A stretch of 62,922 nt of DNA, counting the filler, from Conidiobolus incongruus B7586 (lineage: Eukaryota), in NCBI GenBank assembly GCA_000697335.1. It is 8 parts of 8 records of this genome, joined end to end, with 100 filler letters (N's around TTAATTAATTAA, not from the genome) between each part and the next. Parts side by side here need not be neighbours in the genome. Positions count along the whole stretch, not along the records: positions 43,578 to 55,555 come from JNEM01006624.1; 7 more parts are not named here. One strand, 5' to 3'. The notes below the pieces were generated by a model. That model ran no database searches, had not been told where the DNA came from, and saw only the letters and a program-made list of their open reading frames with translations. Both the position numbers and the translations under genes were made by a program. Position 1 is the stretch's first letter; every line of letters begins with the position of its first letter. Of the stretch, positions 3,532 through 54,000 are shown piece by piece.

Positions 3532-3631
3532 NNNNNNNNNNNNNNNNNNNNNNNNNNNNNNNNNNNNNNNNNNNNTTAATTAATTAANNNNNNNNNNNNN
3601 NNNNNNNNNNNNNNNNNNNNNNNNNNNNNNN

Positions 3632-12473: not shown

Positions 12474-14112
12474 TGTTAATATTTATATTTAATAATGACT
12501 ATCAGTTATTATAAATTTTGATAATGAATCTGAATAGAGTTTGACTGTTTATAAGAATATGTCATTCAATTAGAATGTTGATTAATTATGGGTTAATGAA
12601 GCTGTGCAATTTAACCAGATTTTCATCAAAACAAACAAAAGAAAAAAATTTAAGTACTGAATGGAGAATATGTTTAAAAGTGAGCGCAGTATTATGGTAA
12701 TGTATGGATCATTATGTAAAACATTATATCATGGTATCTTGGTTACTACGTAAGTTTCACTGAGTTGGATTTGCTTGGGATCCGCGAAATTTATATGAGC
12801 GAGAAAAAACTGAGAATTATTAAGGATTGTATAAATATTTAATTTATTTAGAGTTTTGTGTAGTTGAGTATTGAGTTTTGGTAGAGTTAGTAAAGTTGAC
12901 CCAAAATTGGGTTATCAAAATTAAGCTATATACTATAGCTAAAAGCTCAAAATTCAGAATTGATTGATAGAAAAAATGTAATACCATCATATTTCTAGAT
13001 ATTTGCTGAGGACTTACTATCAATCGGTATTATTGCTTATATACTGAGCAGCAAATTCACTGGTATGCTATGATATTGAATTATTAATTCTAATCAACCA
13101 ACCATGATTACGAAATTTAATCAATATTGTGATTTTCTATGGTATATCAATTGTAGTTGAATTGAATAAAGAGCATAATTATACTTATCAATTAATGCAA
13201 TTTTTATTATATATTATATATTGTTATTAAATAAATTACTATGTAACATCAATATTATCAATGATATAATGTAAGAATCGAAACTAGATCAAACATTTTA
13301 GTATTAAATGATGTTTTTAGTAAAACTCTGGTATTTATATTAAATTCTAATGTCTTTATGTTATATGATATTTAATAATATACCACTACTAATGTATCAA
13401 TATAAGCTATTTCTTTGGGTATTGTATAGTTTATCTTGATTATTATCAAAAGATTATAAAATCAAAATACATAACAACAATTTTATATTTAAACAATCGA
13501 ACTGATAAGTTTTTTCCCCTATGTTTTAAACTAATATGAATTATTTTTTATGTTTGAAAATTCAAATCAAATTTCTTAAGATAAAAATATTGATCTTCTT
13601 TTAATACGAAATGAAGCTACATAAATTTTCAGACTTATCAATCAAAATATCATTTAAAAATGGTTATTAAAGATTTGCAATTGTTTGTGATATTTAAAAT
13701 AAATATTGATTCCATTAAAAATTTATCCAATTTCATTTAATAAATTTAACGGATATACTAATTTGTATTCAATAGATTTTAATAAGTATAATTATATAAT
13801 CTCATAGAAAAAATTATTATTATTATTATTATGATTGTTTAGTTGATATAATTTTAAAACAATGACAAAAAGAGTTAATTTTAGAGTTCAAAGTCATACG
13901 TTTATTAAGTGCAAAACACTAATACTAAAAACTGAACCCATAAAATATAAAAATTAATTGATATAAATATTTATATTATTAATCTATTGAGACTGAATTT
14001 TAAATAACTAAAAAATCAAAAAAACACCCTTAATAATTTTAATTTATAAAAACTGTCTATTAAAATTATTTATTACCATTATCTTTCTCTAATATTTTAA
14101 TCATATTTAATT

Positions 14113-15120: not shown

Positions 15121-15191
15121 TGCCGTTGCGCGGAATCGAACCGCGGTCTGAGCGGCCACAACGCTTCGTACTACCACTATACTACAACGGC
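15121..15191 (-). tRNA. tRNA-His(GTG)
   Basis: GCCGTTG...CAACGGC-A acceptor stem, TT-GTG-GC anticodon loop, GGTTCGATTCC T-loop, T6 terminator downstream. Confidence 0.95.
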
Positions 15192-16095: not shown

Positions 16096-17553
16096 ATGCT
16101 TAAACAAATTCCTCTTCAATTAATGGAGGCCCTGTCACATTCTGTCAACAGAATAATGAAAGGTATTTCCAGAACGAAATCTCCCTCCGTGAACCCAGCC
16201 CAATTTATGGTGAGACCCACTTATCGAGTTCCGCGAAATCCAGTAGTTTTCTGTCATGGTAAGTGTTGATTCAGTGTATTTTTTTTTCAGCTGAATTACT
16301 TTCACTCGCACTCAACAAATATAAATTAATATGCTGACATTAGTTAGTAAATGGTCTTAACCTTAATTTTTTCTTTAGGACTCTATGGCTTTGATAAACT
16401 AGGTAATTAATTTTAATTAATTTTCAATATTTCTTGTCCCATACATTGAGTTTTATGGTTGATCTATTGTTAATCTTTTATATTGCCCCCTTTTAGTTAA
16501 TGTTTTGAATTGATGATATTTGCTCAATAGTTAATTCAAAACCATATATTTAAATTGGCTAATAGCTCTCATTGTACCTTTGTAATGATCACATATAACA
16601 TAGCAAACTCTTAATATTTTACAATAAAATTGCCAATAAACGATATTAATCATTATATTGTAGGTTTTGAAAAAATACCATTTCTCCAGTTTCATTACTG
16701 GCAAGGCATCTCGGAAGTGTTAGAGAAGATGGGAGTCAAAATTATAGTTGCCAAGGTAGCCAGGTAAGCTTAATAATCCTACCATTTATAAATTCCTTTA
16801 TTTATCTTTTGTAGAACTGGTGGTATCCACACGAGAGGCCAACAACTTCATGATTTGATTGCTACAAAACTTCCAAATCAAAAAGTGAACCTAATAGGCC
16901 ATTCCATGGGTGGACTTGATTCCAGATATCTAATATCACATATTCGCCCTACAGAGTTCCAAGTATCTTCTCTAACAACAATTAGTACACCCCATAGAGG
17001 AAGTGGGTTTATGGACTGGTGTCGAGACAACTTAAGGATTGGAATGAGCAAAGAAACTCTGGAGGATCGTATCCCCAACGATAACATTAGGCAAAATTGG
17101 TTTGAAAACTTCATGAAAATGCTAGACACTCCAGCTTATGCACATTTGACATCGGACTACCTCCAGAAAAAATTCAATCCATCAACGCCTGACGATCCTA
17201 ATATCAAGTACTACTCTTACTCAGCATATTTAGACCAAATGCATTATTTGAGCATCCTCCATCTTCCCTGGAGCATCATCAATGCTAAAGAGGGTAAAAA
17301 CGATGGCCTAGTCAGTGTTGAGAGTGCCAAGTGGGGCAAACACATGGGGACTGTTCGAGCTAATCATTTTGATCTCGTTGCTGGATTCCGATTGGTTACA
17401 ATGATGGGTGAGTGGATCGGATTGAAGGGATACAGGGATCCTTTGTTAATGCCTTGCAATACTCAATTCTTTTTAAAAAACAATGAAAACGAATTTGATA
17501 GGATTGAATTTTATATTAGTGTCATGAACCATTTGTATGAAGAAGGCCATTAA
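16096..17553 (+). CDS. TGL2: Triacylglycerol lipase, Tgl2/lipase 2 family (4 exons)
   Basis: Spliced PRNPVVFCHG|LYGFD, HYWQGI, GHSMGGLDSR nucleophile elbow, STPHRGS, NDGLVSVESAKWG and ANHFDL. Confidence 0.88.
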
Positions 17554-21759: not shown

Positions 21760-23062
21760 TTAGAAAGTGGAGGGGCGCTTAGATTGGTACAAAGAAGCGT
21801 GAGCCTTGCTGGAGGGCTTGACAACACGGTGGGGCAAGGGGAAGGAGAGTTTGTTGTTCTAATTGAAGAGTTAGTATCAATTTTGATCTGGTATTGAAAT
21901 ATGGTATTTACCAAGAGTTGCTTGATGTAGGGACGACGGACATCCTTGGAGGCAATTTCAGCGACACGGATGATTTGGATAGATCTGGAACGAGCACGGT
22001 GACGAGAGGCCATATCTTGATCTAAAAACAGGATTAATAAATTTGGCTTGTGCTTATATTTTATAAAGCTTACAGCAAGCGTGGACGGCATCGGCACGGG
22101 TGAGTTCACGGTATTCCTTGTACATATTGTGGGTACCGGAACGGGAGTCATAACGGAGCCAGATGGCGAAGTTCTTGACCTTTTGGGGTCTCTTTTCGAA
22201 GATCTAATTGCAAAATTAGTGGTAAATATTGACAATGAATAAGATTAAATTACTTCGTTGACGGCAACAATTTCACCGGAAGTCTTCTTGACCTTGGAAA
22301 CCTTCTTTAAGAAGTACCAGTAGCGAGACTTGGCAACAATTTCGTTGGGAGCGAAGAGTCTCATGCGGTATAATCTGGGAACGGGCTCCTTCTCAGTGGG
22401 GAGTCTACGTCCGATGACTTGATATTCGTGCAACTGTAAATAAATCTGCGTTAGAACTTTTGCGATATAATATTTAGTGATATATTTTATTGTATGATGT
22501 ATTATTAAAAGTATTATTGTTGGATATCTAGATGGTTGTATCTTTAATTCATTTCAAAATCTCCATTCACATTATGATCACTTATTTTGATTTTTATATT
22601 TTGATTTTTCAATTAGTTGTTTGTATTTTTATTATTACTTACTCTACTCATGTTAAAAATAAAATTCGAGCAGAGGTTTCTTTGCTATCGAAAAAGAGGA
22701 GCTTGTTTCCAATAATTTTGTATAGTTTTTACCAAACCAAACTTTTTGCACTTCTTTTATCCCACAACTTCATTTGAAATATTTTAAAATCATAATAATA
22801 ATCTTTTTCCCAATTCATTTTTAAGCTTTTAAATTTAATAATGTTTATCAAATTTGATTTTTCTGTTTTATAAAATAAAACTTCTCTTCATTGCCTCAAT
22901 CTAATAATTCTCTTAATTATTTATCATTATTACGTATGTCATTGTAGCTCATGATATTTTACAATTTTAATCATATATTTTATCAACTAAAATATTTTTT
23001 ATATTCAAGTCTATATTTTAACTTCAATTTTATTTACTAACAACCTGTTTAGAAACGTTCAT
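21760..23062 (-). CDS. RPL20: 60S ribosomal protein eL20 (L18a/L20), multi-exon
   Basis: [13 protein letters not shown]...[57 protein letters not shown]...RPSTF*. The first exon MNVSKQ (23062-23045) is inferred. Confidence 0.93.
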
Positions 23063-24231: not shown

Positions 24232-26335
24232 CTATTTCCAAGGATCAAGCTCTTTATCAGGTCCCAGATAGTCTCTATTTTGTATTCTTCTATATTCTTC
24301 ATCTTTGTTTTTGCCCCATGTTCCACGGAAAGGTAATGATCCCCAGGCAGGATTTTCTCCCACAAGCTCCCTATCTGGATTAAAATCTTGAATATATGAA
24401 TCAGCATGTGGGCGTGAAGGAATTGGCTGGGGCTGAGACTGAGACTGAGACTGAGACTGAGAATGTGGTTCTGCATTATTTGGCAGGGCTCTTGAGTTGT
24501 TAATGGGCGTTCCAGCTTGAATTGGCGAATGACGAGATTTACTGATTTTAGAATTGGGACGAGAATTATTATGGAGCTTAGGCCTGAGTAATAAATATGA
24601 AGGTGGCTCAATAGTTGGGATGTTATAATCACCATAGTCGAGATTTCGACATGATTTATACAAGTTTTCAGCCTCAATGTCTCTTTCTACATCACTAAAT
24701 GATAACTCTATACTAGGAAAGCTTATATAAGTACTTTCTCTAGCAGATTCTCTTCTCTGAGGAATAAGACTTTCATTAGAATTATTTGAGCTATTGGAAT
24801 TTGGATCTACCCAATATTTGCTCTGACCTCCTCTTGAGTACCTTAAGCCTTCCATCATTCTGTTTCGTCTTCCAGCCTCAGAAGGTGAAGCACCTTCAAC
24901 TGGCTCAAATGTTCGATAGTTAAAATGGGTTCCTGAGTATGTTTCTTTTGAATCCAGTATAATATCTCTAATTCCTAGTGCATCTCTAATGGCATAATAA
25001 AGCTTGAGGCGAACAACTATTCCGTTAGGTCTTTTGTAATCTGAAATAGAAAATGCATAACTTTGAGCTAATGCGGCAAATAACATTTCAAAACATATCA
25101 TTGAATCTTGAAGAGCAACAGCGGTATGCTCAGCAGAAAATCCTGGTCCTGAAATTCAATATGGTTAGTGATAATTTGAAACAATTAATAAGTGTAATTT
25201 TACCTAGACTGATTAAACCAGTCGATACGAGGATAGATATAGCTAAACCTTGCCAAAAAGAAAAGAAAATAATGGCCTTTACACATAAGAATTTAGCCAA
25301 GGGTCTAAATGGATATAAATTAATATTTAGCTTAAAAATAGACGGTGGGGAAATTACCTATAATCTTTTAAATCCTTTTTGGTTGTTTGAAAGAATATTG
25401 CTAAACAATATAAACTTATTGAAACGCTCAAGTTATAAATAAAAGTTATATAAAAGTAACCCGAAGTAAGAGATAAATTTCCATCATCAAACTTTTCAAT
25501 ATATTTCAAATATAATGTAGCAAAGGTAATTACAGGTTTTACATACACATATTGAAGAATTCCTCTCTAATAAACAAAAGTTGTTCCATTATTAATAGTG
25601 GACTTTAAACTTTTGAAATATATTTCTAATATTGAATATTTACTTACTTTAATAAATAAAAATGAATAAGGGTCTCCAACCTTAAAATATATAAGTTGAA
25701 TAATTCAATTAAATACACAATATATTAAATACCTCTATTTCTTTCTTAAAATAATATACTGGCCAAAGATGCTGAGTTGGTTCACGATTATGAAGTAGGA
25801 TAATAAGTGCTCTTTCGCCTCCTAAATAGTTTACCATAAGAGTAAAGAAGCAGTAAATGACAAATGCCTGAATAACAAATCGTTATAGTGATATGTATAT
25901 TTAACTAGATGATATAATTTTACCTCATACATGTCTCTAAGAGCATCTACATAAAATGCTGCATTTAATGAAACTAGGCTGATATAAGAAGAGAGTGCAA
26001 AAACTGGAGTCCTACATAAATTAAATTTTAAATTCAAATTATTTCAAATTTTAATATTAATAGCTTACATCCATAATACCCGAATAACAAACCTCTGAAG
26101 ATTCTATGTTATAAATTGCATTAGAAATTGTTTATGAAAAAGATATATTAATAATTACTGGTCTAGAATAATTTTTTAAATGAGAAGCAATAGTGAAGAG
26201 ACTGATTAAGGTAGCAATTATTGATAAAATTAAACAGATTTGTACGAATTTTTTCCCAAGTTTATCACCTGCTCCTCCTGAGTTATCAGAAGCGTCTTCT
26301 TCGATATCAAAAACATAAGGATATTTTAATAACAT
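24232..26335 (-). CDS. Organic solute transporter OSTalpha/TMEM184 family membrane protein (Hfl1-like), multi-exon
   Basis: HLKNYSRP, DALRDMYEAF, GDPYSFLFIKRGILQYVYVKP, SVSISLYCL, KFLCVKAIIFFSFWQG and ICFEM, followed by a disordered C-terminal tail with an SQ repeat. Confidence 0.9.
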
Positions 26336-28615: not shown

Positions 28616-29190
28616 ATGGTGAGTTAATCTAAAAATTAAAACAAATATCCATCAATCTTACCTATTTGTTATTAATATTTTATACAGGCTGATCAACTAA
28701 CTGAAGAACAAGTTACTGAATTTAAAGAAGCTTTCTCCTTATTCGATAAAGATGGAGATGGTATGATTACTGCTAAAGAATTAGGAACTGTTATGCGTTC
28801 ATTAGGTCAAAATCCTACTGAAGCTGAACTTCATGACATGATAAACGATGTCGATACTGATGGTAGTGGTACTGTTGACTTCCCTGAGTTTTTAACTCTT
28901 ATGGCTCGTAATATGAAGAATGCCGACTCAGAAGAAGAAATTCGCGAAGCTTTTAAAGTATTCGATAAAGACGGCAACGGTTATATCAGTGCTGCTGAAT
29001 TAAGACATGTAATGACCAACTTGGGTGAAAAGCTTACTGATGAAGAGGCCGATGAAATGATTAGAGAAGCTGATGTTGATGGAGATGGTCAAATTAACTA
29101 TGACGAATTCGTTAAGATGATGGTAATTTGTTTTTTATTCTCACTATTTCTCTTTCGATTTCTAATCTATAATTTTAGATGTCCAAATAA
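28616..29190 (+). CDS. CMD1: Calmodulin (divergent), exons 28616-28618, 28688-29122, 29179-29190
   Basis: [26 protein letters not shown]... with four intact EF-hands, ending VKMM|MSK*. The intron right after the ATG is typical of calmodulin genes. Confidence 0.93.
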
Positions 29191-32079
29191 ATCAACTCAA
29201 GGTGTATTCATTCAAATCTTCGTATATTTTACCAAGTAAACTTTAACTTTTCATTTCGAAAATTTGGTTCTTGCTTCACTGGGTTTGTTTAAAATTATCT
29301 AGGGCCCCTTTTTAATTTCTTTAATACATTCTTTATAAATTACTTCCCCTTAAGTCATTGAGTTTTAATTATTACATTTCTATCCCAATTTCTGTCTTAT
29401 TCAATGATCTCTTTATTGTATTATTGCTGTACTAAATCGTTTCATAAATATGCTTTGCACTATGGAATTTTATTTGTAATTAAAATACTCAATTTATTAT
29501 TTTATTGATCCATATTTTTAATTTTATTCAACAAATCATCTTATAAATATTGTTAATATCATTTTATTCGTCATATCTCAATTAATTATAAAAATTTTAA
29601 TTTCTTGAAGTGTGAATCTTTATAATTCTTTATTGGTCCAGGAATATCGACTTACAAAATATTTAAAGTTATTAGAATTGATGTTTTTATTATTCTCAAT
29701 ATTCATAATAATATATTAATCAAAATTCATTAGTCATATTTCAACTTTATAAATTTCTCAGAATTTGATTTTTTATTATATCTGATATATTTATAACTGA
29801 TAAATTTAAATTATAATATTATTGCCATTCTAATTAAAGTTTTAAAAATTTTTTTATAAGTATTGTTTGGTCATACTTTAATGTATATTTTTGTGTTTCT
29901 CAAGTTATATATTAAATTATCCTAATATTCGTTTCACTTTTCATTATACATTTCTAAAATATATTATCATTAACTTTGAATTTTTTCAAATAATAGTGAA
30001 TAATTTGAAGAATATAACAAATATGAATATGATATTATAATATGATTAACAATGAGAAATAAAATGATATTCAGATATAATTCCAAAATTGAAATATTCA
30101 ATTTAAGTATTCTTAAATATCAAATTGGATTTTATATAACTCATTAAATATTTTCAATATACTATGCATTTTGAAGCAATCTGTCAATGGATAAATTACT
30201 TCATCTCAATTGTCTCATTATATCTTATTCACTCTTTTTGATAAAATTAATTCCAATTATCAACTTCAAAATTATGACTTGTTCAATTCTTTGACCAGTG
30301 AGCTTATTAAATGGATAGTATCATATGCTTCATATATTATGTATTTCAATTTCCTTTGATAATTTTTTATTCAATCATATCATTTCCCTAATATTACAAA
30401 CCATTCATATTTAATATTTATTTTATTTACATAAGTGAATCATTTTAAAGAAATCAATATATAATTTAATTTTTATTTAAGAATTATGCAAATGAAATTT
30501 ATTATATAATCAAAATATCATTTTATATTTTCTTTAATAAAGAATTAATAATCAAAAGTTGAAAATAAAAGAAATGTAATGTTTAGAGTATTTGAAACGA
30601 TTAAACTAGCTTTTTGAGAAGAGTATATTTTCATTGTTTAAATTTGAGTAATTAATAGGAATATTATTTGTATCAAGTCCATAATTTTCGAATAAATATT
30701 TGAAATAATATCAAATTGATTACATATTAAGATATATGTAATTAATTGAAAAAACATATTTAGAGTTATTTAGTAGAATACACATTGATTTGATATCGAA
30801 ATAATATATAAGTTGAATCAGTTTTCTCCCTATTCTATACTTAAAATTATTATGAAAATGTTTATTTTATGTTATTAAACTTATACTAGCATTTGAAAAA
30901 TAATTAGTTCCATATTAATTTTCATTAGAATATATATTATGAAAAACCTTGAATTGTTAAAGTTGAATAGCTGATGGTAACTGAAAAAGAAATAAATATT
31001 ATATTGAAATTCACTGCATTAATTTTTTTATCTTATTTTATACAAATGACTTTTAAAATTAATAAAAAAATTAAAAATTTAAATATTATTTATTTCCTTA
31101 TAATAATTTATTTGAATATTAATTAAATTAAAAAGTTATTTTGTAATATTTTTATTTATTAAACTAAGTTCATTATATATATATATGTANNNNNNNNNNN
31201 NNNNNNNNNNNNNNNNNNNNNNNNNNNNNNNNNTTAATTAATTAANNNNNNNNNNNNNNNNNNNNNNNNNNNNNNNNNNNNNNNNNNNNCTTTTATATAT
31301 TTTATAGTTTTTTATATAATAAAAATATTATTTAATAGTTATATAAAAAATACAAATTTAATATTAATCAATTTATCTTAAAAAACTACAAAAACTCTAT
31401 ATCTTTAATATATTCCTAAAAACTATTTCATAATATCACTGGCAATATTTCAATTTTATTATTATTAGTATTAATAATTAACTAAATTTTTATTACTATT
31501 ATAGATAATTATTATCTATACTACCGAAGCTAAATTATAAATCAATTTTTGAAAAATTAAGTTTTACATAATAATACTTGGAAAACGCTAATATACTAGA
31601 TTTATAATATATTGATAATATATCTCATAACTTAAAATAAACCTTTATATTTGATTACTAACTAAATTATATAAATACCTCTTATATTTAAAAGTTATAT
31701 TTTAAGCAAAATATATAACATTATTAAATCAAAATATTATTTAATATAATTTAATTATTTTAAAAATTATCTATAATAACATTGATTTAAGAAATAAAAT
31801 TCATTATATACTATAATATAAAATTGGTTGTATAATAATTCATCCATTAATAAGATTAATAAAGGCCTAGAAAACTTTCCTTCAATTTTATTAAATATAT
31901 ACCTAGCTTTATATAATTACCTATTTATATAAGCTAATATAACTAAAGCACTAAAACTAACTTTTAAAATTAGGATTGGTATTTATTATAAAATATTAAC
32001 TATATTGATGATATTTCATATATACAATAGTTTTAGCCAATATTATAATTGGCTCTTAAAGCCTAAGCTTGATAATTAC

Positions 32080-36913: not shown

Positions 36914-38956
36914 TTAAGCTGAAGCTAACCCGTAGACTTCGGGTTTGAGTAATTCTTTGGTAATACCTTGGATCACTTCAGTGGTCTTGATTTGGAGTTT
37001 CTTGAAGCGTTCCTCTACTTGACTGATATCTAAGGTGGGATCGACGGGAGCTGCCAATTCGGAATAGTATTTAATCTTGGGCTCGGTACCTGAAGTTCTG
37101 AGCGTCAATGTGATGTTGGATTCAGGTTGTCCTTGCTCCAGAGCACCTGATAATTCGAAAGTAATCATTTGGCTAGATGGAGAGACAGGTAAGATAGGCT
37201 TATTGTCAGGTTGGCTGGAATCGTAGCCAACGGTAAGATCTCTGATGCTGGTAACTTTGAAACTGTAAAGCTCTTGGGGATAGTTAAGTTTACCAGATTC
37301 AGAATATCTCATTTTATTGAAGATGGTGTTAATCAATTCGGGATCTCTGCAGATATAGTAGCTGTTCTCGTTGACGAATATACCATATTTGTGGTACAAG
37401 CTCATCAAATATTCATAAACGGTGGTTCCGCTTTGGTAAAGTTGGTTAGCGAGATTGACGAATGTGATCATAGCACTGATACCGTCTTTGTCGCGTACGA
37501 TATCTTCACACATGAAACCAATAGCTTCTTCGTAAGCGAAAATAGCCTTCATGTTGGGGTCTCTTTGTTCCCACTTCAAAGCTTGGTTGCCCATCCATTT
37601 GAAACCAGTCAAAGTAACTTCAAAGTCATAGCCTTCGACTTTACCAATGGCTTGGAGCATACCAGAAGAGACGGCACTAGCGAGCATACCAACCTTTTGG
37701 CTACCACCTTGATACTTTTGGAATGTCTTAAAACCAATCAAAGTACCCAATTGATTACCGTTGAATTGAATCCATTGTCCGTTAGGAAGACGTTCGGCAG
37801 CGGAGAAACGGTCAGCATCAGGGTCGTTGGCGAGGATAATTTGAGCTCCAATCTTGGTACCTTCTGCCATAGCTAAATCCAAAGCACCCTTTTCTTCAGG
37901 ATTAGGGAATTTAACGGTAGGGAAGTCCGGATTGTGTTCATATTGATCCTTAACAATCTCAAAAGGATTGAGGCCGCAGTCCTCAAAAGCCTTCTTGGCA
38001 TACTTACCACCAACACCATGGAGAGGAGTGTACAAGTATTTGGGCTGAACTTTTTCGGGATTAGCCTTAGGGAACAATTTGGAAACGCGATCAAAGTACT
38101 TTTCGACCATTTCATCATAAGGGTCAACGCAGAGATCGCTAGTGTTGCAGATTTCAAGATCCCAAGCCCAAGGTTCTTCATTTTGGCGGATTTGGTTGGC
38201 AATACCAGCATCAACGGGTTCGATGATTTGACAACCGTTGGACCAGTAAACCTTGTAGCCGTTGTCATCCTTGGGATTATGGGAAGCGGTAATCATAACA
38301 CCACAGACAGCATTAAGCTGAGTGATACCAAAAGGTACTAAGGGGGTATGGACCTTAGTTCTGTAGAGGTATACCTTGAAACCTTTTTTCAAAAATGGAG
38401 CGGCTGTCAATTTGGCAAATGTTTCAGAGTTGTGTCTGTGATCGTAACCAATAACAACACCTCTGGATAGGGCTTCTTCTCCATATTGTTCGAGAGCGTA
38501 GCAGCATAAACCCTGAAGAGTTTAATTAGAAACTATATATGTTTAAAATGAGATTTATACTTACTTGACTAGCTTGTAAAACGGTGAGGTTATTCATACG
38601 ACTAAAACCAGGTTCCATTTTAGCTCTTAAACCTAGTTGAATGAATTAAATTAAAATCCAATTTGAAAATTCAATATAGATCATAAATAAATTTAAATAT
38701 ATAAAAAAATATTTTGATTATAAACTTACCAGCTGTACCAAATTTGATAGGATTACTCAACAAAGCGTCAACTTCAGCCCAATTCTCTTGTTTGACAAGA
38801 TTATCGATGTAATTAACATTTTCTTGATCCTGATAAAATTTTCTAGATATTAATTTAGATGATTTGATCAAAATAAATTACCTTATCAAATTGACGATAT
38901 TTTTCTACCAAACTTATTAAGTTTTGAATATTATACTGTTGTTGATCTGAAGTCAT
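36914..38956 (-). CDS. PGM3: Phosphoglucomutase/phosphopentomutase (yeast Pgm3/Prm15, human PGM2 type)
   Basis: FGTAGLR, GYDHR, TASHNP catalytic loop, NDPDADR metal loop, YEEAIG and RTSGTEPKIK. Small 5' exons start at ATG 38956. Confidence 0.93.
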
Positions 38957-41167: not shown

Positions 41168-42254
41168 ATGTCAGAAAGCAGAGCTGAATTATTAAATTGG
41201 TTAAATACCTTATTAGAAGAAGATATATTAAAAATTGAACAATGCGGAACTGGTATATCAAATTATTATTCATTAGTTATACTGATTGATAAATATTAAT
41301 TTATTAGGAGCCGCTTATCTACAAATTTTAGATTCAATTTATGGTAATTTATTATATCAAATATTATTAATATAAATATATTCACTTTAGTTTTTCAGGT
41401 GATGTCCCTTTGTACAAAGTTAAATTTTATCCAACTCAAGAATATGAATATATTCAAAATTTTAAAATTTTACAACAGTGTTTTAATAAAAGGGGGATAG
41501 ATAAAGTATTTAGTAGAAAATATGTTATTATACTATATATATAATTAATATTTGATGTATAGGAAATCAACGTTCCTAAATTGGTTAAGAAGAGATTTCA
41601 AGATAATTTCGAATTTTTAACTTGGATGAAGAGGTTTTGGGAATTAACTACTTCCGGTCAACATTATCCAGCTGCCGAAAAGAGAAGAATGGCCCAAGCT
41701 GAAGCTGTGAGAAGTGGGATGCGCTCACCCAGTTCCGGAATGTCCACACCTACATCTGGGACTCGTGGCTTGAGATCTCCATCTGTCAATAATCGTCCTC
41801 CTCTGCAGCACTTGAGATCCATGTCCAGTGATCAAATGGCTGAAGCTTCACCACTCCTGCAAAGGGCGCACTATAGTGTAACTGAACTTATGAAGAATAT
41901 TGCTCGCGTGGAGAGTGAACGCGACTTCTACCTGGATAAATTAAGAGAAATTGAAAAACTTTATCTTGAGCTTTACCCACCACCATCTCATCAAAGTGAT
42001 GTTGCCGAATTACTAAAAAGGATCCAATCTATTATTTATTCAACTCATGTAATCTCATCAAGTAATACAATTATCAATTTTTCACTAACTTTTATATTTA
42101 GAATGGTGTAACTGATTCCATTAAATATGTTCACCCAGCTTCTCCGTCCCCAAGACATGGTCACAGTGGATCTGACGTTTTACCATCTCTCTTGGGTACT
42201 TTAAACTGTCATGAACCCGTCCAAGAAGAAGTGAATGAAGATGAAGTCTTTTAA
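41168..42254 (+). CDS. BIM1: EB1/Bim1/Mal3 microtubule plus-end binding protein
   Basis: MSESRAELLNWLN...IEQCGTG CH domain, FQDNFEFLTW, EB-homology ERDFYLDKLREIE, and a C-terminal EDEVF* (EEY/F-type tail). Confidence 0.92.
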
Positions 42255-43577
42255 TCAGATTTCAATCAATCGCAAATTCTCTATTTATAATCTTCAAAAT
42301 TCGATCAAAAATATTTTGCTGATATTATATTTATTATCAATACTTTGTTTAAAATGTTTTTATTTTAATATATCTCCAATTAATATACCATTTTATTAAT
42401 ATTTTTAAATGCTACTTTGGTGAATTGCTAATTTACATTTGATATAAATAATCAATTTTATAACAAGGAAACAAAAAAAATGAAAAAACTAATATATTTG
42501 GAATCTATTCTCTTAGATATTCATTTGAAACATTTTTCCTTTTTTGCAAAAGCTTGAATATAAATGAATAGTTTTAATCAATTCATTTTATTATCACCTT
42601 AGAAAAATTTAATAGTTAAAATCTATTTAATATTGGTTGACTCTCTTTGAGATATATTATTACAAAGTTATCAAAACCTTGCTATTATTCAAAAATCATA
42701 TTTTATTATATTATTTAATCTATTATTAAATATTATATATTTTCAAAAAATAATCATATTAATCAATATATACTTATTATTTTAATTTCCTATATAATTT
42801 TTTCAAAGTTATAAATTATTATATTAGCTTAGATTTTTCATTTTATATATTTCAAATAAAATCATTATTAATATATTTTATAAATATAATAGTAACAAGA
42901 TTAATATAGTATAAAGGAAAATTTATTATAAAAATAGTGTAAGTTTTAATATGATATTGATTATATGGCAAGATAATATTAATATTAACAAACTTTAATT
43001 AAGCTTTGTAAATAAATAAGTCAATACTCATATATTAGGATTTATATTAAATAGTGCCAATTTATTATAATATTGATAGAATATAGTCTCAACCTAGGAA
43101 ATAATAAAAAAATATAAAATTATAAGAATTAAAAAAAAACCTAGTTTATTAGATAAATAAATATTATTTATATTATTATTTTAATTTTAAAATATGAATT
43201 AATTTAATTATAATTAAATAATATACATAAAAAATATATAAAAATTTTAAAACTTATTTTTTAATATTTTGTTTATAATAATAAATTATATATTTAATTT
43301 TTGATTTTTTCAATATATTTCTTTGAAAAAAAAATATATATAAATTTATGGGAAAAATAATATTTTCAAAAGATATATAAATAATGCAAAATTATTTCTT
43401 ATTAAAGTAATTTGAATTTAAGATATAAATATAATTATATATAAACAATAATTATCAAAAATCTTTTGATTTAATATNNNNNNNNNNNNNNNNNNNNNNN
43501 NNNNNNNNNNNNNNNNNNNNNTTAATTAATTAANNNNNNNNNNNNNNNNNNNNNNNNNNNNNNNNNNNNNNNNNNNN

Positions 43578-44016: not shown

Positions 44017-47000
44017 ATGGGTCCTGGTACAGATATACCAGAATTAATTATTCAGCAATCTCCATCGATTAAAAAACGAGGTAGACCTAAGGGTTGGAGA
44101 AAATCAACAGCCTCCCCTTCTAATACTATAACCCCAGTTCCTGATACCGCTCAAAGTGAAGGTATCGTTCAAAAGAAGAGAGGTCGACCATTTGGATGGA
44201 GAAAATCTATCAAAGAAGATGAAATTAGTGTTAATACCCCAATGAATAATTCATCACCAGTGAAGAAGAGAGGTAAACCACTTGGATGGAGTAAGCCCAT
44301 CGCAGAAGGTGTTGATAATGATACTGGTAATAATAGCCAAGCAGAAAATTTGGGAAAACCTATATTAGAAGACGATAACAATAATGCCGATAATAGCATC
44401 CCAACGAATAATTTATCAGTTGTGAAGAAGAGGGGCAGACCATTGGGATGGAGAAAACCTATCACAGAAGATGATAATAATAGCCATAATAATATCAATA
44501 ATGATGATAAAAATGACAACACCCCAGCGAATAATTTATTACAGGTAAAAAAGCGAGGTAGACCACTAGGTTGGAGAAAACCTATCGCAGAAGATGATAA
44601 TATTGATAACTCAGAAAACAGCTCATTATCAGTAAAGAGGAGAGGTAGACCAATAGGATGGAAAAAGCCTATCGTAGAAGATGATAATACTGATAAGGAT
44701 AACAATGATAGTAATAATCCAGAAAATAATTCATCATTAGTAAAGAGGAGAGATAGACCATCGGGTTGGAGAAAACCTGCCTCAGAGGATGATAATATTG
44801 ATAGAGATAATAACAACAATAGTCCAGCGAATAATTCATTGCCAGTAAAAAAGAGAGGTAGACCAATAGGATGGAGAAAGCCTACCATAGAAATCAACAA
44901 TGATGATTCAACGGGTCATGCTGTCGAAATTGAATCAAATCCACTCACAAAAAGAACAGGAAGAAGAAAAGCTACTGGAGCTAATCAAAATCAGAAAATG
45001 GTTAATTTGGATGAATCTGATGATGACTTGATAAGCTACGATGATTTAGCTAAGGACGGCAACTACCAAGTTGAGGATGATGAATCCGAAGATGAAGTAG
45101 CATCCATGGAAGAGGGCGACTGGTATGATTCAGATGAAGATATTGAGCATTATGGAAATTCACCTTCACAGCATGCTATCTCCGATGAAGAAATGCACCG
45201 TCAATTATCTTCAAAATTAGCAAAAGTCAACGGATCAAAGTACATTAGTAATTCAATTAATTATGAGCGATGGGTTGAAGATTATGATCCTTTGCTCAAG
45301 GTAAATTCATTAATTACATAACTCATTCATGGTATCTGACTTGCTATTTATTAAATATTTCTATAGCCTGTTACATATATTCCTCCTCGTTCTACCAAAC
45401 AATCAAACGAAAATAACTTAACCAGCTATTGTGGATTTACTACATTATTCCCTAATGAGAGCCAAGAACTTGTTAAAATGAGATACAATATGATGATACA
45501 AGCTCAAAAATCTTTGAAACAGCATTATGAGGATAATTTTATCCAGAACCATTCCAAGCACCAAAGTGATAATAGCTGGAAAGAAGATAAAATACAATGG
45601 CTTATTGAACAAATGAGCTATTTTCGAGAAGACATCCAAAGTAAAAGGTATAGTAAACACTTCGAATTATTTATTACAGTTATTAAACTATATGCGTTTT
45701 AATTATAGTATGTTCCCTAAGTTACCCATTGTCATGCTTGAAATAGGAATGGAATCGAATTTCCAAAACAACTTTTGTGTTTTATTAAAACGGCATCTTA
45801 TGAATGTGAGTTCCAAATACTTTATTAGATTTTGCAATTTAGATATGAGTTCCATTATGATTAAAAATAGCGCACAAAAGTTAAAGCATATTATTCACAC
45901 TATTTTTAATGATCTTTCCAAAGGGCTGCAGTTAGAGGATTCAAATTTATCTGACTCTGAAGACCGTGACGAAATCCCCAGCCAAGTAAATGAATTCCGC
46001 GATCTTTTAAGGTCCCATGATTCATGTAGGTATGATAGAGGTGATCATAGAATCAATATGAATATTGTTCTATTACCACCATGGGAGAGTTGGGATTTGC
46101 AATTGCTCGAACACTTAATCAAAACTTTACTTCCACTTCAGCCAATTCTTCTCTTACCTACCACTACCAACAGTTCCGATACCTTACCCACTTTACCCTA
46201 TGAAATCACTTCACAGCTTGATGCAATCCACCTCAATTTCCAAATCCCCTGGAAAGATCTGGAGTCTGGACTCAATTTTTTGGATGGCGTGGAAAAAGAG
46301 GGTATTTTCTTGAATATATGGCCTCTACTCCGACTTGGCAAAAAGTTTTGCTACTACGATTACAATGTTGAGAACTGGTATGAAGAAATGAAATGGATTG
46401 TCTTGGATTATTTCAAATCCAATCCATTGAGTACGCTTTGCTTGAAGCCTGATGATCCTCGATCAGTTGATTTGACCTACATCCGTAACGAAATTATCTC
46501 CAAACTATCACATAATCATTTCGAAATTGTGAGGTCGCTCCCTTCATTCATGACTTGGTTTGAGGAGCTCCCAGATAACAAAAAGGATAGAAAAATTCTT
46601 GAAGACGATAATTACTTTGCCACCGAATTTTTGTCTGTCAAGTTGCAATCCTTACAAATGTATTTGATAGACTATCGTTTAGGATTTGAGTTGTTCGTAC
46701 AATTGCAGCGTTGGCTCTATCAACTTGATCCAGACACTTCGATTGACTCTCGTCTATATCTCAAGCTTGAAGGATTATCAAGAGGCCTTTGTGATTCTGA
46801 ACCCATGAGCACAACTTTGAGTCAATTGGGGTCCCTCGATTTCCATAAACTCAGTGTACTTTTAAAAAGTATGCTCCTATTTATTCAACAGCAGAAAAAT
46901 TTCTTATCTCGAAAAGTTACAAGTTTAGACAGTTTGAATAATTATTTGAACAAACTTAAAGGACTCTTAGATGACTATCATGCTGGTAACTATAACAAAA

Positions 47001-47516
47001 AATATACTCCAGCCCAAAAATTGAGTCATATTTTATCAGAGTATTTTAAGTAAGTTTATGTATTTAGTCATCGATTTTATAATTAACTAATAATTTATTT
47101 ATTTTTTTAGAATTGTATTAAAACCACCTTATTTAATAGTATTATACGAGCTAGCATTTTACAACGATGATAAATTGATTCAATCTACTTTCGAACCCAA
47201 TGTATCCGATTTATTACAGCAAGATATCCAGTCACCCGATAATGAATTTTTGAGCTTTAAGGAAAAACGATTCTCTCCCGATATAGCTATAATGTACGAA
47301 ATTTACTCAGAATGTGGTAGACTTATCAACATTTTTGACTGGGGTAATGCCTTCATCAACAAACTTAAAGATCAAGACAGATCAAACAAGTTGAATCAGC
47401 TAAAAGATGATAAAATTTTATGGGGACGATTCTTCAATGGTTTAGAAACTTTCAAATTTTTTGGATTAATCGCTACAACAAAACGAAAGACTGACCATGT
47501 GGTTAAATTAATTTAA
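44017..47516 (+). CDS. ORC3: Origin recognition complex subunit 3 with an N-terminal AT-hook array (exons 44017-45300, 45367-45647, 45709-47049, 47111-47516; ~1103 aa)
   Basis: The C-terminal winged helix PDIAIMYEIYSECGRLINIFDW...RFFNGLETFKFFGLIATTKRKTDHVVKL is the ORC3 signature. GFTTLFPNESQELVKMRY resembles the fungal ORC3 N-terminus. All three GT-AG introns preserve frame. Confidence 0.87.
44068..44885 (+). repeat. Coding tandem repeat: eight K(K/R)RGRPxGW(R/K)K AT-hook units with N/D-rich linkers
   Basis: Six perfect RGRP cores and two variants (RGKP, RDRP). DNA-level similarity between units (AGAGGTAGACCA.T.GG.TGGAGAAAACCT). Confidence 0.92.
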
Positions 47517-48341: not shown

Positions 48342-48414
48342 GCCTTCTTGGCTCAGTTGGCAGAGCGTCCGCCTAGTAAGCGGAAGGTCACCAGTTCGAT
48401 TCTGGTAGAAGGCA
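48342..48414 (+). tRNA. tRNA-Thr(AGT)
   Basis: GCCTTCT...AGAAGGC-A acceptor stem, TCCGC-CT-AGT-AA-GCGGA anticodon arm, GTTCGATTC T-loop. Confidence 0.95.
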
Positions 48415-49958: not shown

Positions 49959-51029
49959 TTATAGTAATATAGGAGTTGGAGAGTCCCAAGACTTAAGGGA
50001 ATCCCTTATCGAGAGATTGCCACCAGGGCTCGACTTTTTGGTTGAACTGGAGATAGAATAAGTTCTGGCGATAGATGCCCTAGAGCGTGAATTGAGACTA
50101 CTTGATGAACCTCCAATAGATGCACGACGTTGAGGAAGCATCATTACACGGATTTGATTGGGAAGGAGAGGACTATCAGGATCCCTTGAGATAGGTACGA
50201 GATCCTGAGGTAAAGAAGTAACATTAAAAGCAGTACCGTTAAGAGGGTGATTCTTAAGACGCTTGAGGATACTTTGGATGAGGATGATTTGTCTAAGATT
50301 TCTGTTAGGTGAATCAGATAATTTTTTCAAGCTTGAATGGTAAGCACCACGCATAGGAGCAGTAGAATAAGAATATCCATTGAAGGCAGACTCAATATCT
50401 TCAGCCATAGCCAAGTTGAAGTCAATATCTGTTCTGTCCAACTCACCATCATCTTCATTATATAATCTGGCAAAATCGGATTTGGTTCTTGGTACTGAAT
50501 TGTTGTAATATCTGCGTGGAAGCTGATTTGAATTGGGCGTGGGTGGCTGTTTGGATTTGAAAAATTTGCTTAAAACTTGTTTGAATTTAGAAGGTTGTTT
50601 GGCTGACTTGAGAGATTGTGAAGGTATCGTAATATTTGAATTGATTTCTGAGGATGAAGATGATTTGGAGCTGGGCAGAGATTCAGAAGAAGCAGAGGAG
50701 AGAGAGGGAGTGGTTGAAGGGGTTTGAGAATTAGGTTGTGGTTGAGAACTGTCAGAATGATCAGATTCAATTCTTTGAGATAAATCAACTATTGATTGAG
50801 TAGGTTTAGAAGATTTTAAACTAAGAATACTGAATGAAGAGCTCTTTCTTAAACTAGACTGACGCTTTTTATCTGAAGAGTTGTCATTTTTTAAAATACT
50901 GATTTCTGAATCAATAGTAGAATTGAGTTTAGCATCGATAGGTGCTGAAAAGTTCATAAATGAGAAGCGCTTAGAAGGGCGACGAGAAGGTGGGATGGTA
51001 TTATGAATAGACAATGTCTCAGTAGTCAT
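49959..51029 (-). CDS. Ser-rich disordered protein with a Zds_C/SERTA-like helical motif
   Basis: 356-aa open frame from ATG 51029 with coding-like GC. Motif MRGAYHSSLKKLSDSPNRNLRQIILIQSILKRL. Confidence 0.7.
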   Translation of the reverse strand: MTTETLSIHNTIPPSRRPSKRFSFMNFSAPIDAKLNSTIDSEISILKNDNSSDKKRQSSLRKSSSFSILSLKSSKPTQSIVDLSQRIESDHSDSSQPQPNSQTPSTTPSLSSASSESLPSSKSSSSSEINSNITIPSQSLKSAKQPSKFKQVLSKFFKSKQPPTPNSNQLPRRYYNNSVPRTKSDFARLYNEDDGELDRTDIDFNLAMAEDIESAFNGYSYSTAPMRGAYHSSLKKLSDSPNRNLRQIILIQSILKRLKNHPLNGTAFNVTSLPQDLVPISRDPDSPLLPNQIRVMMLPQRRASIGGSSSSLNSRSRASIARTYSISSSTKKSSPGGNLSIRDSLKSWDSPTPILL

Positions 51030-54000
51030 CTGAATATAATTAAATGAAAATGTCAACAATTAAGTAACAACACTAAAGGAAGGAATTAACAAATATACAC
51101 TAAAAAATGCTACTTGAAATTGAAGTAACTAAAACTTAAACAGGAGCAGTATTTATAGAATTGAACAAATTCAAATTATGTGAAAATTCAATTACATTTG
51201 TGCTTGTAATAGGGTAAGATATGTGGATTGAGTAAAAGGTGGGTGGTTGGATGATGAAATTGATAACAACTCAATTAACTAACCTAATTGTCACTACTTC
51301 TGCACTGATTGGTTAGTGCTTATCATTGATAGGAATAACACTCTATTTGTAACATCCTAAATTACTTCTATTTAATTAATAACTCTTAATAGAAATTTCA
51401 TATTATACTCAATTCTGAACTAAATTTAAATAGTTTCAATTGTATATTGTTGTTTAATCAAGGGTATTAAATATTTCAATAAGTTTAAACATATTCTCCC
51501 TTAATGAAACTGTATTGTATTTTTCTATTTTTTTGGATAATTATGAGATGACTGCATTTTATTAAAATGAAATAGAATACCCGAAGCTGAGTTAATAAAC
51601 TTAATTTATAATATTATTTTTACTTTAATTGATTTTAAAAAAGATTAACAAAATAATTTCGAGTTACTTGAGTAGTTTTATTATTTCTTATTTAATATTT
51701 TAAGTTACATTGATATAAAAAATATAATAAAAATTCTATACACAAATACAAAAATAATATTTTTAATCCGTTCATTGTTGCTCTTTTAAACCAGTATGAG
51801 TTTAATATTTTTAACCCTAATAATTTGTTAATTTTTGTAATTTTCAGGGTATATTAGCTTGCATTTATAAGGGTCATTGCTCAATATATTTAATCAGTAA
51901 CTTAAAAGTCGACCATTTTATATTTCGTAATATTGAAGATTGATTATATAAACTAAAGAAACCTCTAATAATCCAAATCCAATAGGAGTAAAGAAGTGAC
52001 TATAATCAATTATATTATTTCTCCTTCAACTGTTCTTAATGATTTCATTTATAATCAATGCATGATAATGATCAATAATGGATATATTCAAACATGAAAT
52101 CAGTTGAAAACCTCAATCTGAAATAGAAATTCAAGAAAAATAATCCACTGCTTACGGATGATTTTAAGAATAAAAACCCTATATTAAAAAGATTTAGATC
52201 AAAATATCTATATTGGAAAATATCTTGAGAAAATATCAATCTAATTACTAAATTTGGTAAATGATAAATACAAGTAAAATTTCAAAATAGTAAATATATT
52301 TTATATTATTGAAATTATAGAATAAAAAATATATATATATTCAGTTTTAATATCTAAAAAAATATATGAATTTTTAAAATAATTTTAAATAACTTTTATT
52401 AAAATATTATATTAAAATGATTAAAGGATACAATCTTAATTAAAATTTGAATTATATATGTATATATCAATGCAAAATACAGTCACAAAATTTATATAAA
52501 ATGAGGTCATATATGAATAAATAGTGGAGATAGTATTAGTTATACATCATAATAAACTTTAAAAAATATCAAATTTTTTTGAAAATTATTTGTATAATAA
52601 AATCTTAATTAATACATATTAATATTCTATAATACTTGATCTACGATTTATTCATAAATAACATTTAAGATTTCTAATTCTATAATTGATAGTAAACTAA
52701 TGTTTATTATTAATTGATTAAAACTATATTATGTTTTTTATATCAAATATAATTGATAAGTTTGATGTTAATTATAGTACTAATTGTCAAAATATAATAT
52801 TCTTGAAAAAATTAATTAATCAACAATATTACACATGTCTAATCATTGGGTTATATTATGTAATTGGAAAGTATATTTATTTAACTTTAATTAACAAATG
52901 TTATTTGGATGTATATCAAATAATTCAAGTATAAATTCAATATAAGAGATATAAACTAAAATAATAATTTATTATATTTAAAATATTTTAAGATTTTTAT
53001 TTGGAAAATTTAATAAAAATAACTTTAAGATAATTTTAATGATATTTAAATTTTCCTTTAAAAAATTAAATAATAAACAAAATAAATTGATTTGTTTTGA
53101 TCTTATTAATTTTATTATTATTAATGGATAATTTTTATTAAAATGGGTTTTAATTAAATTCGTATTGTTAATTTGATATATTAAAAAATAATGGTAATTA
53201 TGTTATTAAATGGTAATTAATTTTTTTTATTAATATTTTAATATTAGCTTATTATATATGTGGATAATATTTCGTATTAATAATTACTACTTAATCATTT
53301 ATTAAACATAAAATTGATTGATTTATGATATTTGAAATAAATCTTCAACATGTAAAATGTACTTAAAGAAAATAGTGATTTGAAATCAAAATAAACTGAA
53401 TAATGATAAAACGTTATGAATTGAACAGTATTTTATATACTTTCTTTCTAATTATAAACAGATATTTCAGACCATTGATTCAATATAATTTAAATTAATT
53501 GTAAATAACAGATATGCAAATAGATTGATAGATTAAAGGCTTAATTTTGTATTTGATATAAATGAAAATTCACAATAATTGGTTAATCATGTAATTCACT
53601 ATATATAGATATATCCGCAGCATTATTTTGTTACAGAAAAACTATTGAAAAATATAATATAAAGCCGCATCTTATAACTTTATCCTTTATTCGATATCTT
53701 TCTTTACAATTACTTATTATCTGATTTTAAGATCGGTATTAATTTTATATTTGTATTTATATTAAAAAACAAGTTCTATTAATAATTTTCCCAGTGCATT
53801 ATTCACTTTAATAATCAACAATCTAAATACTATATATTAAAGAAATGTAACTAAATTATTTTAAGTATACGTGTAAAATATTGTTATTAGCTATATCAAT
53901 TTAATTGATTTTATAATTTCAAAATGAAAACAAAAAAATATTTTAACCAGATTATGATCTTTAATTTAATCCATTATATTTATGAATAATTTTTTTGCAT

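What the first reader, a model, noticed from the sequence alone, without database searches (positions are those of the whole stretch)
44017..47516. ORC3 fused to an N-terminal array of eight AT-hooks: a possible independent origin of AT-hook-guided replication-origin selection
Seen: the AT-hook ORF is joined in frame to ORC3 by a canonical 66-nt intron (CTCAAG|GTAAAT at 45301, branch-like CTGAC near 45336, TATAG|CCT at 45366). Two more frame-preserving introns lead to the ORC3 winged helix, giving ~1103 aa, all within one contig. Known: S. pombe ORC finds AT-rich origins through nine AT-hooks on Orc4, and ORC3 normally has no such DNA-binding appendage. Inference: this very AT-rich fungus may have evolved the same origin-targeting strategy on a different subunit. 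I am not aware of this architecture being described but could not search for it.
Basis: partly seen in the sequence, partly recalled or inferred. Interest (0 to 1): 0.92.

Follow-up and report, generated by a model that had tools for sequence, protein, structure and literature searches.

The report
AT-hook-like array fused to fungal ORC3
In a very AT-rich fungus related to Conidiobolus, the gene for subunit 3 of the protein ring that marks where DNA copying starts is predicted to splice onto a long floppy front end with eight AT-hook-like repeats, which likely tether the ring to AT-rich DNA, a trick described for other subunits but not found in print for this one.

Summary
Four exons give a stop-free 1103-aa protein whose last ~680 aa are ORC3 (own HMM E 7e-70; Pfam winged helix above cut-off; best PDB hits ORC3). 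The nearest relative is Conidiobolus coronatus ORC3 (48%).

The join across intron 1 has no RNA proof, but four lines support it. Donor and acceptor rank 1 of 48 and 1 of 137 under a splice model from this window. The 37 codons before the rival ATG are ORC3-like. An orthologous hook protein from another genome stops matching at the same codon. Two Entomophthorales-type ORC3s also carry 230-246 aa basic N-terminal extensions.

Corrections: only 6 of 8 repeats keep RGRP. They are a tryptophan-bearing variant below Pfam's AT_hook cut-off, so they are AT-hook-like, not canonical. Hooks on a subunit other than Orc4 are already published (seven on sponge Orc1, single hooks on yeast Orc2). No ORC3 case turned up in nine literature searches.

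Most likely function (about 55%, inferred): ATP-independent tethering of ORC to AT-rich intergenic DNA. DNA binding, origin use and this organism's Orc4 were not testable. Verdict: new variant of a known strategy.

The parts
44017..45300 (+). Exon 1 (aa 1-428): predicted disordered N-terminal extension of ORC3, made of a hook array, an acidic block and the start of the ORC3 N-terminal motif
   Evidence: mean pLDDT 41.8 with almost no secondary structure from a 2-row alignment; ortholog P0027
44068..44106 (+). Hook 1 (intact RGRP, the only copy with a basic residue after P; preceded by a CDK-type SP site)
   Evidence: Pfam AT_hook 14.6 bits, below the 17.4 cut-off
44170..44208 (+). Hook 2 (intact RGRP)
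44260..44298 (+). Hook 3 (degenerate, RGKP; preceded by a CDK-type SP site)
44422..44460 (+). Hook 4 (intact RGRP)
44545..44583 (+). Hook 5 (intact RGRP)
44632..44670 (+). Hook 6 (intact RGRP); first unit of a 108-nt-period tandem array at 44612-44886
44740..44778 (+). Hook 7 (degenerate, RDRP)
44845..44883 (+). Hook 8 (intact RGRP)
44977..45216 (+). Acidic block (aa 321-400, net charge -22) between the hooks and the ORC3 core
   Evidence: also present in P0027 and before the core in P0023 (last 60 aa net -17)
45262..45300 (+). End of exon 1, conserved with P0027 up to the donor; likely the first half of the ORC3 N-terminal motif
45301..45366 (+). Intron 1, 66 nt, phase 0, GT-AG, with four in-frame stops (the last is the acceptor TAG)
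   Evidence: donor rank 1 of 48 and acceptor rank 1 of 137; not RNA-verified
45367..45647 (+). Exon 2 (aa 429-522): ORC3 N-terminal segment and first long helix; the first ATG is only at 45478
45648..45708 (+). Intron 2, 61 nt, phase 2
   Evidence: best HMM score of the 3 of 6 frame-compatible choices tested
45709..47049 (+). Exon 3 (aa 522-969): ORC3 AAA+-like and insertion domains
   Evidence: Pfam ORC3_N and ORC3_ins below cut-off; PDB ORC3 E 5.8e-11; 48% to C. coronatus KXN69673.1
47050..47110 (+). Intron 3, 61 nt, phase 2
   Evidence: the C. coronatus protein runs continuously across this point
47111..47516 (+). Exon 4 (aa 970-1103 and stop): ORC3 winged helix
   Evidence: Pfam ORC_WH_C E 6.6e-18, 65.6 bits against a cut-off of 26.4

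Best explanation
[quoted passage not shown] Shown: the open frame, the ORC3 core, the repeats and the quality of the splice signals. Strongly inferred (about 0.88): intron 1 is spliced, so hooks and ORC3 are one chain. Inferred by analogy (about 0.75): the RGR cores enter the minor groove of A/T tracts, with several hooks giving avidity. Inferred (about 0.8 given the first two): this gives ATP-independent capture of ORC on the 80-90% AT intergenic DNA in preference to the 57-70% AT coding DNA, as S. pombe Orc4 hooks do. Speculative: the acidic block dampens binding as the HMGA2 acidic tail does, and SP/TP sites beside some hooks let CDK weaken it. The array probably grew in place by tandem duplication within a basic extension that Entomophthorales ORC3 already had.
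For: Joined model against a 23-sequence ORC3 HMM: E 7e-70, with homology from aa 433. Exon 2 scores 17.1 bits against an N-terminal fungal ORC3 HMM with its pre-ATG part, 0.7 bits from ATG 45478, and at most 5.1 in 200 shuffles. In human ORC, ORC3 residues 10-14 add a strand to the ORC2 sheet (PMC7467728 passage); the matching segment here would lie before ATG 45478. The 13-mer across the junction is the best match in the model protein to the fungal ORC3 N-terminal motif: 11.1, reached by 16 of 40,596 background windows, against -1.3 for read-through. Splice sites rank first. P0027 shares the hooks, the acidic block and 9 of the last 13 exon-1 residues, then diverges after the Val (GTN) codon and stops 60 nt later, as an unspliced intron of local size would. 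P0027 mixes GWRK hooks with canonical-looking ones. Massospora ORC3 has a 230-aa extension with one RGRP, and P0023 has a 246-aa one (950 aa on a 3105-nt contig); the other 21 of 23 aligned ORC3s have 3-26 aa. Mismatches among hook copies fall mostly at third codon positions (40/46/101). GC per kb ranges from 0.11 to 0.43 across the window. Precedent: two-step tethering by SpOrc4 hooks and by Orc1 disordered regions.
Against: Splicing is not observed. The junction motif scores far below true members (22.7-39.2) and is not significant against the profile that includes animals (758 of 40,596). Exon 2 alone against the ORC3 profile in hhalign was weak (probability 0.9%, E 0.063). The DNA downstream of P0027 was not found, so its ORC3 link is inferred. 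No database protein shows hooks and ORC3 joined in this lineage: a search for longer relatives found none (weak), and the C. coronatus model starts inside the core. Seven of 8 copies lack the basic residue after P, linkers are acidic (net -2 to -7) and exon 1 is net -8. Sponge Orc1, despite seven hooks, bound a 50% AT probe weakest and formed heterochromatin-like puncta, so hooks need not mean origin choice. P0023 has the extension but no RGRP.
Confidence: 0.55

Rival explanations
1. The fusion is real and the hooks bind AT-rich DNA, but they mainly anchor ORC or an ORC2-ORC3 subcomplex to heterochromatin, satellites or centromeres, or act as a general chromatin tether without choosing origins.
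For: ORC2 and ORC3 localise to centromeres and may act apart from the other subunits (PMC7467728 passage). The hooked sponge Orc1 region forms puncta its authors think pericentromeric. The same GWRK hook occurs in P0028, which has a weak Mis14-like kinetochore domain (E 3e-4, below cut-off). In a window that is 77% AT, hooks may discriminate little.
Against: The only tested multi-hook ORC array named in the papers read, SpOrc4, is needed for ORC assembly at origins. Intergenic and coding GC differ two- to three-fold here. The two roles are not exclusive.
Confidence: 0.22
2. Two adjacent genes: a stand-alone HMGA-like protein (hooks plus acidic tail, stop at 45321) and a separate ORC3 starting at ATG 45478, or at ATG 45329 through a 35-nt mini-intron.
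For: Hooks plus an acidic tail is the HMGA layout (PMC11773362 abstract). P0027 is catalogued as a stand-alone 520-aa protein and the C. coronatus ORC3 model has no extension. An ATG-only first exon does occur in this window's calmodulin gene.
Against: Only 156 nt separate the stop from ATG 45478, and 111 of them are in-frame ORC3-like codons. ATG 45329 lies 7 nt after the stop, its intron would be shorter than all 10 control introns (50-209 nt), and its donor is not among the top 8 of 48. Conservation with P0027 ends at the GT. Relatives have the extension in the same chain.
Confidence: 0.1
3. The fusion is real, but the GWRK repeats are not minor-groove hooks: they are nuclear-localisation, RNA-binding or protein-binding motifs, or near-neutral repeats in an expandable disordered region.
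For: Below the Pfam cut-off; hydrophobic or serine residue after P in 7 of 8 copies; 2 of 8 cores broken; hook number differs among relatives (8, 7 GRP-type, 1, 0). Some non-canonical hooks prefer RNA (PMC11354804 passage).
Against: The RGR core with basic flanks is the defining contact element (PMC11354804 section 1.1). The motif is kept between two species whose linkers differ, and third-position changes dominate. Pfam also missed the canonical-looking hooks of P0027 and P0005.
Confidence: 0.13

Closest known systems
S. pombe Orc4 N-terminal nine-AT-hook domain (Chuang and Kelly 1999; seen only through citing passages; original not held), with similar Orc4 hooks in many fungi including Neurospora (10.1101/2020.07.04.187286)
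   Same: Array of hook motifs in a disordered N-terminal extension of a core ORC subunit; similar count (8 vs 9).
   Different: Subunit is ORC3, not Orc4; motif is RGRPxGW(R/K)K with acidic Asn-rich linkers; binding and function are untested here. The sequences were not compared directly because no Orc4 was fetched.
Sponge (Amphimedon) Orc1 disordered region with seven AT-hooks; degenerate hooks in echinoderm and S. pombe Orc1 (10.1101/2023.05.11.540405, passages)
   Same: Multi-hook array on an ORC subunit other than Orc4, in a disordered tether.
   Different: Orc1 normally has a DNA-binding disordered region, whereas 21 of 23 ORC3s aligned here begin within 26 aa of the core; sponge hooks are canonical.
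Single AT-hook in S. cerevisiae and C. albicans Orc2 (10.1101/430892, passages)
   Same: Hook on a non-Orc4 subunit in fungi, next to ORC3 in the ring.
   Different: One motif, of speculative role according to the authors.
HMGA1/HMGA2 (PMC11354804 passages; PMC11773362 abstract)
   Same: Disordered chain of hooks followed by an acidic tail; HMGA1 recruits ORC to AT-rich DNA.
   Different: HMGA has three hooks and acts in trans; here the module is predicted to be covalently joined to ORC3.
Entomophthorales ORC3: Massospora cicadina KAI0244818.1 (P0005), unnamed P0023, Conidiobolus coronatus KXN69673.1 (P0001)
   Same: Orthologous ORC3 core; P0005 and P0023 have long basic N-terminal extensions (acidic just before the core in P0023).
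   Different: One hook (P0005) or none (P0023); the C. coronatus model lacks its N-terminus, so its state is unknown.

Membership tests
ORC3 (PF07034 + PF19675 + PF18137) | C-terminal ORC_WH_C winged helix above the curated cut-off | tested here: met
   65.6 bits vs 26.4, E 6.6e-18
ORC3 (PF07034 + PF19675 + PF18137) | ORC3_N and ORC3_ins domains | tested here: inconclusive
   On exon 3 alone, 17.6 vs 25 and 18.7 vs 28 bits, in the right order. The C. coronatus fragment is also below cut-off for ORC3_N. The joined model could only be scored with my own ORC3 HMM: E 7e-70 over profile positions 16-513 and 566-718 of 721.
ORC3 (PF07034 + PF19675 + PF18137) | Best hits among solved structures and named proteins are ORC3 | tested here: met
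   The top 4 of 6 PDB sequences are ORC3. Of the named hits looked up, most are annotated ORC3 and the rest hypothetical or unnamed.
ORC3 (PF07034 + PF19675 + PF18137) | N-terminal strand motif that completes the ORC2 sheet | tested here: inconclusive
   Best match lies across the intron-1 junction but is weak: 11.1 vs 22.7-39.2 for members
ORC3 (PF07034 + PF19675 + PF18137) | Sole ORC3 of the genome and assembles into ORC | not testable with these tools
   No genome held; no ORC2 of this organism available
Canonical AT-hook (PF02178) | GRP core within RGRP | tested here: met
   6 of 8 copies
Canonical AT-hook (PF02178) | Basic residues on both flanks, with K/R directly after P | tested here: not met
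   8 of 8 have a basic pair before the core, but only 1 of 8 has K/R after P; basic residues follow 3-4 positions later, after G-W. Filed as AT-hook-like.
Canonical AT-hook (PF02178) | Pfam gathering score | tested here: not met
   No hit on whole exon 1; 1 of 8 single copies hit, at 14.6 vs 17.4. The controls P0027 and P0005 with canonical-looking hooks were also missed.
Canonical AT-hook (PF02178) | Disordered context | tested here: met
   380 of 434 residues with pLDDT below 50; the alignment had 2 rows, so low confidence is expected in any case
Canonical AT-hook (PF02178) | [quoted passage not shown] | not testable with these tools
   needs a binding assay
SpOrc4-type hooked initiator | Hook array on Orc4 | tested here: not met
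   The carrier is ORC3: it may work like SpOrc4 but is not a member
SpOrc4-type hooked initiator | Hooks required for ORC binding at origins | not testable with these tools
   needs genetics or ChIP

The most novel reading that the evidence does not exclude
Conidiobolus-lineage fungi independently evolved fission-yeast-style origin selection on ORC3, a subunit with no hook array found in print. They did so by repeatedly duplicating a tryptophan-containing hook variant inside an older basic tail, in step with a very AT-rich genome; intron-1 retention may also release the same exon as a free HMGA-like protein.
Probability: 0.35. Interest if true: 0.78.

Novelty: new variant of a known kind. Interest (0 to 1): 0.62.

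Why it matters
How eukaryotes without sequence-specific origins place ORC is an open question (stated in 10.1101/2020.07.04.187286). A hook array on ORC3 would show that the tether can sit on Orc1, Orc3 or Orc4, which supports a modular 'tether, then encircle' model over a special role for Orc4. It gives a direct swap test in S. pombe. It offers a natural series within Entomophthorales (0, 1, 7-8 hooks) to set against genome AT content. It also defines a hook variant that Pfam misses, and it suggests that database gene models in this lineage hide the architecture by splitting or truncating the gene.

Tried and rejected
RNA evidence: no RNA holder was listed, which is no evidence either way, so no reads were laid. 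No genome was held, so ORC1/2/4 were not checked.

The contig of P0027 or other relatives was not found in metagenome, prokaryote or viral collections. A search for longer fused relatives of exon 3 found 0 of 6095 candidates (weak by the tool's own note). None of 6 window ORFs, including 2 controls, is in the protein collection, so the absence of a fused record says little about this genome's annotation. The winged-helix search returned only 14 proteins, mostly insects, so the ORC3 survey is small: 23 aligned of about 45 ORC3-like records, with fragments and near-duplicates left out.

The protein atlas gave no usable hit for exon 1 and did not answer for P0027. The PDB search with the hook region gave only two compositional RING2 matches, rejected. 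Weak Pfam matches (Methyltranf_PUA, Copper-fist, G6PD_N) are below cut-off and rejected. The 248-aa antisense ORF at 44169-44915 is treated as the shadow of the repeats.

The tree is the quick one, because the careful search did not finish. It flags long-branch attraction between the window/Conidiobolus pair and the Massospora group, so I do not claim a single origin of the extension. A Dimargaris gene-model difference (P0020 vs P0026) hints at an intron at the same motif position but could not be checked at DNA level.

No complex prediction was run, since no partner or DNA chain was available. Earlier findings of this scan: nothing relevant. Three papers were not held. No supplements were read; Table S1 of PMC11354804 (list of hooks) and the alignments of 10.1101/2020.07.04.187286 could bear on novelty.
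Full report
1. Observation. The introns are 66, 61 and 61 nt, GT-AG, and clearly lower in GC than the exons. The nearest N runs end at 43577 and begin at 55556, so the gene is on one contig. Exon 1 holds eight copies of KKRGRPxGW(R/K)K, 29-54 aa apart. Six have an exact RGRP, where codon shuffles give at most one in 2000 trials. Copies 3 and 7 have lost the core. Hooks 6-8 lie in a 108-nt-period tandem array with 75% matches.

2. The core is ORC3. The last exon hits Pfam ORC_WH_C at E 6.6e-18, and exon 3 hits ORC3_N and ORC3_ins below cut-off. The top 4 of 6 PDB matches are Drosophila and human ORC3. An HMM from 23 ORC3s matches the joined model at E 7e-70. The closest of 24 hits among 1.84 billion representatives is Conidiobolus coronatus KXN69673.1 at 48%. 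The two pair at 100% support on a very long branch in a quick tree. The organism is therefore a Conidiobolus-like fungus with a fast-evolving ORC3. Intron 3 is backed by the continuous C. coronatus protein. Intron 2 was the best of 3 tested among 6 frame-compatible choices.

3. Is exon 1 joined to ORC3? There is no direct proof, since no RNA run was listed. There are four indirect lines.

(a) Splice signals. I read ten control introns by eye from calmodulin, EB1 and a ribosomal-protein gene in this window (50-209 nt; not RNA-verified; the ribosomal-protein name is recalled). A weight matrix from these plus ORC3 introns 2 and 3 ranks the 45301 donor first of 48 GTs and the 45366 acceptor first of 137 AGs nearby.

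(b) ORC3 homology begins before the first free ATG. Exon 2 scores 17.1 bits against an N-terminal fungal ORC3 HMM, only 0.7 from ATG 45478, and shuffles reach at most 5.1. Human ORC3 residues 10-14 form a strand on the ORC2 sheet (PMC7467728, passages), and the equivalent lies in that pre-ATG stretch. Residues 423-435, across the junction, are the model's best match to the fungal ORC3 start motif (16 of 40,596 background windows reach it). The score is well below true members and not significant once animals are in the profile. hhalign on exon 2 alone was weak, and the full HMM does not separate this donor from two upstream ones.

(c) An ortholog of exon 1 exists. P0027 (JGI/IMG, hypothetical, 520 aa; 1 of 2 hits) has three near-identical GWRK hooks, several canonical-looking hooks, an acidic block and 9 of the last 13 exon-1 residues. 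After the shared Val it runs 19 unrelated residues to a stop, 60 nt in all. That is what a gene caller reading into an intron at the same donor would give. Its DNA could not be fetched, so its link to ORC3 is inferred.

(d) Relatives carry a long N-terminal extension in the same chain. Massospora cicadina ORC3 has 230 aa with one RGRP, and P0023 has 246 aa with none (950 aa on a 3105-nt contig, so essentially one reading frame). The other 21 of 23 aligned ORC3s have 3-26 aa; the Entomophthora model among them may be truncated.

The two-gene rival needs a terminator and a promoter within 156 nt that are mostly ORC3-like codons, or a 35-nt intron 7 nt after a stop. I put the fusion at about 0.88.

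4. Are the repeats AT-hooks? The RGR core with basic flanks is the DNA-contacting element (PMC11354804 section 1.1), and six copies have it. Only copy 1 has K/R directly after P, and Pfam scores only that copy, below cut-off. Pfam also missed the canonical-looking hooks of P0027 and P0005. I file them as AT-hook-like. Selection on the peptide is suggested by the third-position excess among copies and by motif conservation between species whose linkers differ. Exon 1 is predicted to be disordered (2-row alignment). Against strong binding: the linkers are acidic and exon 1 is net -8.

5. Mechanism (inferred). Published work describes two steps for S. pombe ORC, ATP-independent tethering by Orc4 hooks and then encirclement, and proposes the same for animal Orc1 disordered regions (10.1101/2023.05.11.540405, passages). 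Here a flexible ~300-aa hook array on a ~130-aa spacer would do the tethering from the ORC2-ORC3 side of the ring. The window is 77% AT, with non-coding kilobases down to 11% GC and coding ones at 30-43%, so multivalent minor-groove binding would favour intergenic DNA. The acidic block may auto-inhibit as in HMGA2 (PMC11773362, abstract). SP/TP sites precede hooks 1 and 3 here and five basic motifs in P0027, which would allow CDK control. Both points are speculative. Heterochromatin or centromere anchoring is the main functional rival.

6. Novelty. Nine searches showed no ORC3 with hooks. Of the 15 papers listed with both terms I read passages of 4 and saw only listings of the rest. An ORC evolution survey has no mention of hooks (PMC7058166, passages), and a 2026 preprint calls hook-based recognition uncommon (10.64898/2026.03.10.710760, passages). 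Subscription papers and supplements were not covered. The concept has precedent: seven hooks on sponge Orc1, single hooks on yeast Orc2, Orc4 hooks in many fungi, and HMGA1 recruiting ORC in trans. What appears new is the subunit, the tryptophan hook variant and the lineage-specific expansion. Independent origin is likely, because the carrier is a different paralog and the repeats expanded locally, but exon shuffling from another hooked protein was not tested.

7. Verdict. The feature is real and is a new variant of a known strategy.

Noticed in passing
window 2072-3583 (+): Reverse-transcriptase ORF (RVT_1 in both halves) interrupted by an in-frame stop at 2780-2782 and flanked by assembly gaps; looks like a broken non-LTR retroelement.
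   Followed up: partly
window 41169-42260 (+): EB1/Bim1-type gene (Pfam EB1) with at least four short introns, about 1.8 kb upstream of the ORC3 gene and across an assembly gap; used as a splice control.
   Followed up: partly
window 48342-48414 (+) and 15121-15191 (-): tRNA-Thr(AGT) about 0.8 kb downstream of ORC3, and tRNA-His(GTG).
   Followed up: no
window gaps at 1527, 3532, 10298, 19423, 31190, 43478, 55556: Seven scaffold gaps, each two 44-N runs around a 12-base spacer (the spacer read at 43522 is AT-only); an assembly marker, not biology.
   Followed up: no
P0028 (eukprot, 452 aa): An unrelated protein with a weak Mis14/Nsl1-like kinetochore domain (E 3e-4, below cut-off) followed by three GWRK-type hooks; the hook variant is not confined to ORC3 and may hint at centromeric DNA binding.
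   Followed up: partly
P0001 (C. coronatus KXN69673.1): The database model starts at about position 140 of 328 of Pfam ORC3_N, so it is N-truncated; upstream exons, perhaps with hooks, are probably unannotated or split off.
   Followed up: partly
P0020 vs P0026 (Dimargaris cristalligena ORC3 models): The two models differ by a 29-aa insert just after the N-terminal motif, at about the position of intron 1 here; possibly a conserved intron position, unverified.
   Followed up: no
window 49959-51059 (-): A 366-aa Ser-rich ORF with no Pfam match downstream of ORC3 on the opposite strand.
   Followed up: no
window 12105-38521: Ordinary genes: C2-domain protein (12105-12482, -), alpha/beta hydrolase (16792-17553, +), ribosomal-protein-like gene (about 21800-22650, -; name recalled), OST-alpha-type transporter (24232-25155, -), calmodulin (28616-29240, +), phosphoglucomutase family (36914-38521, -).
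   Followed up: partly
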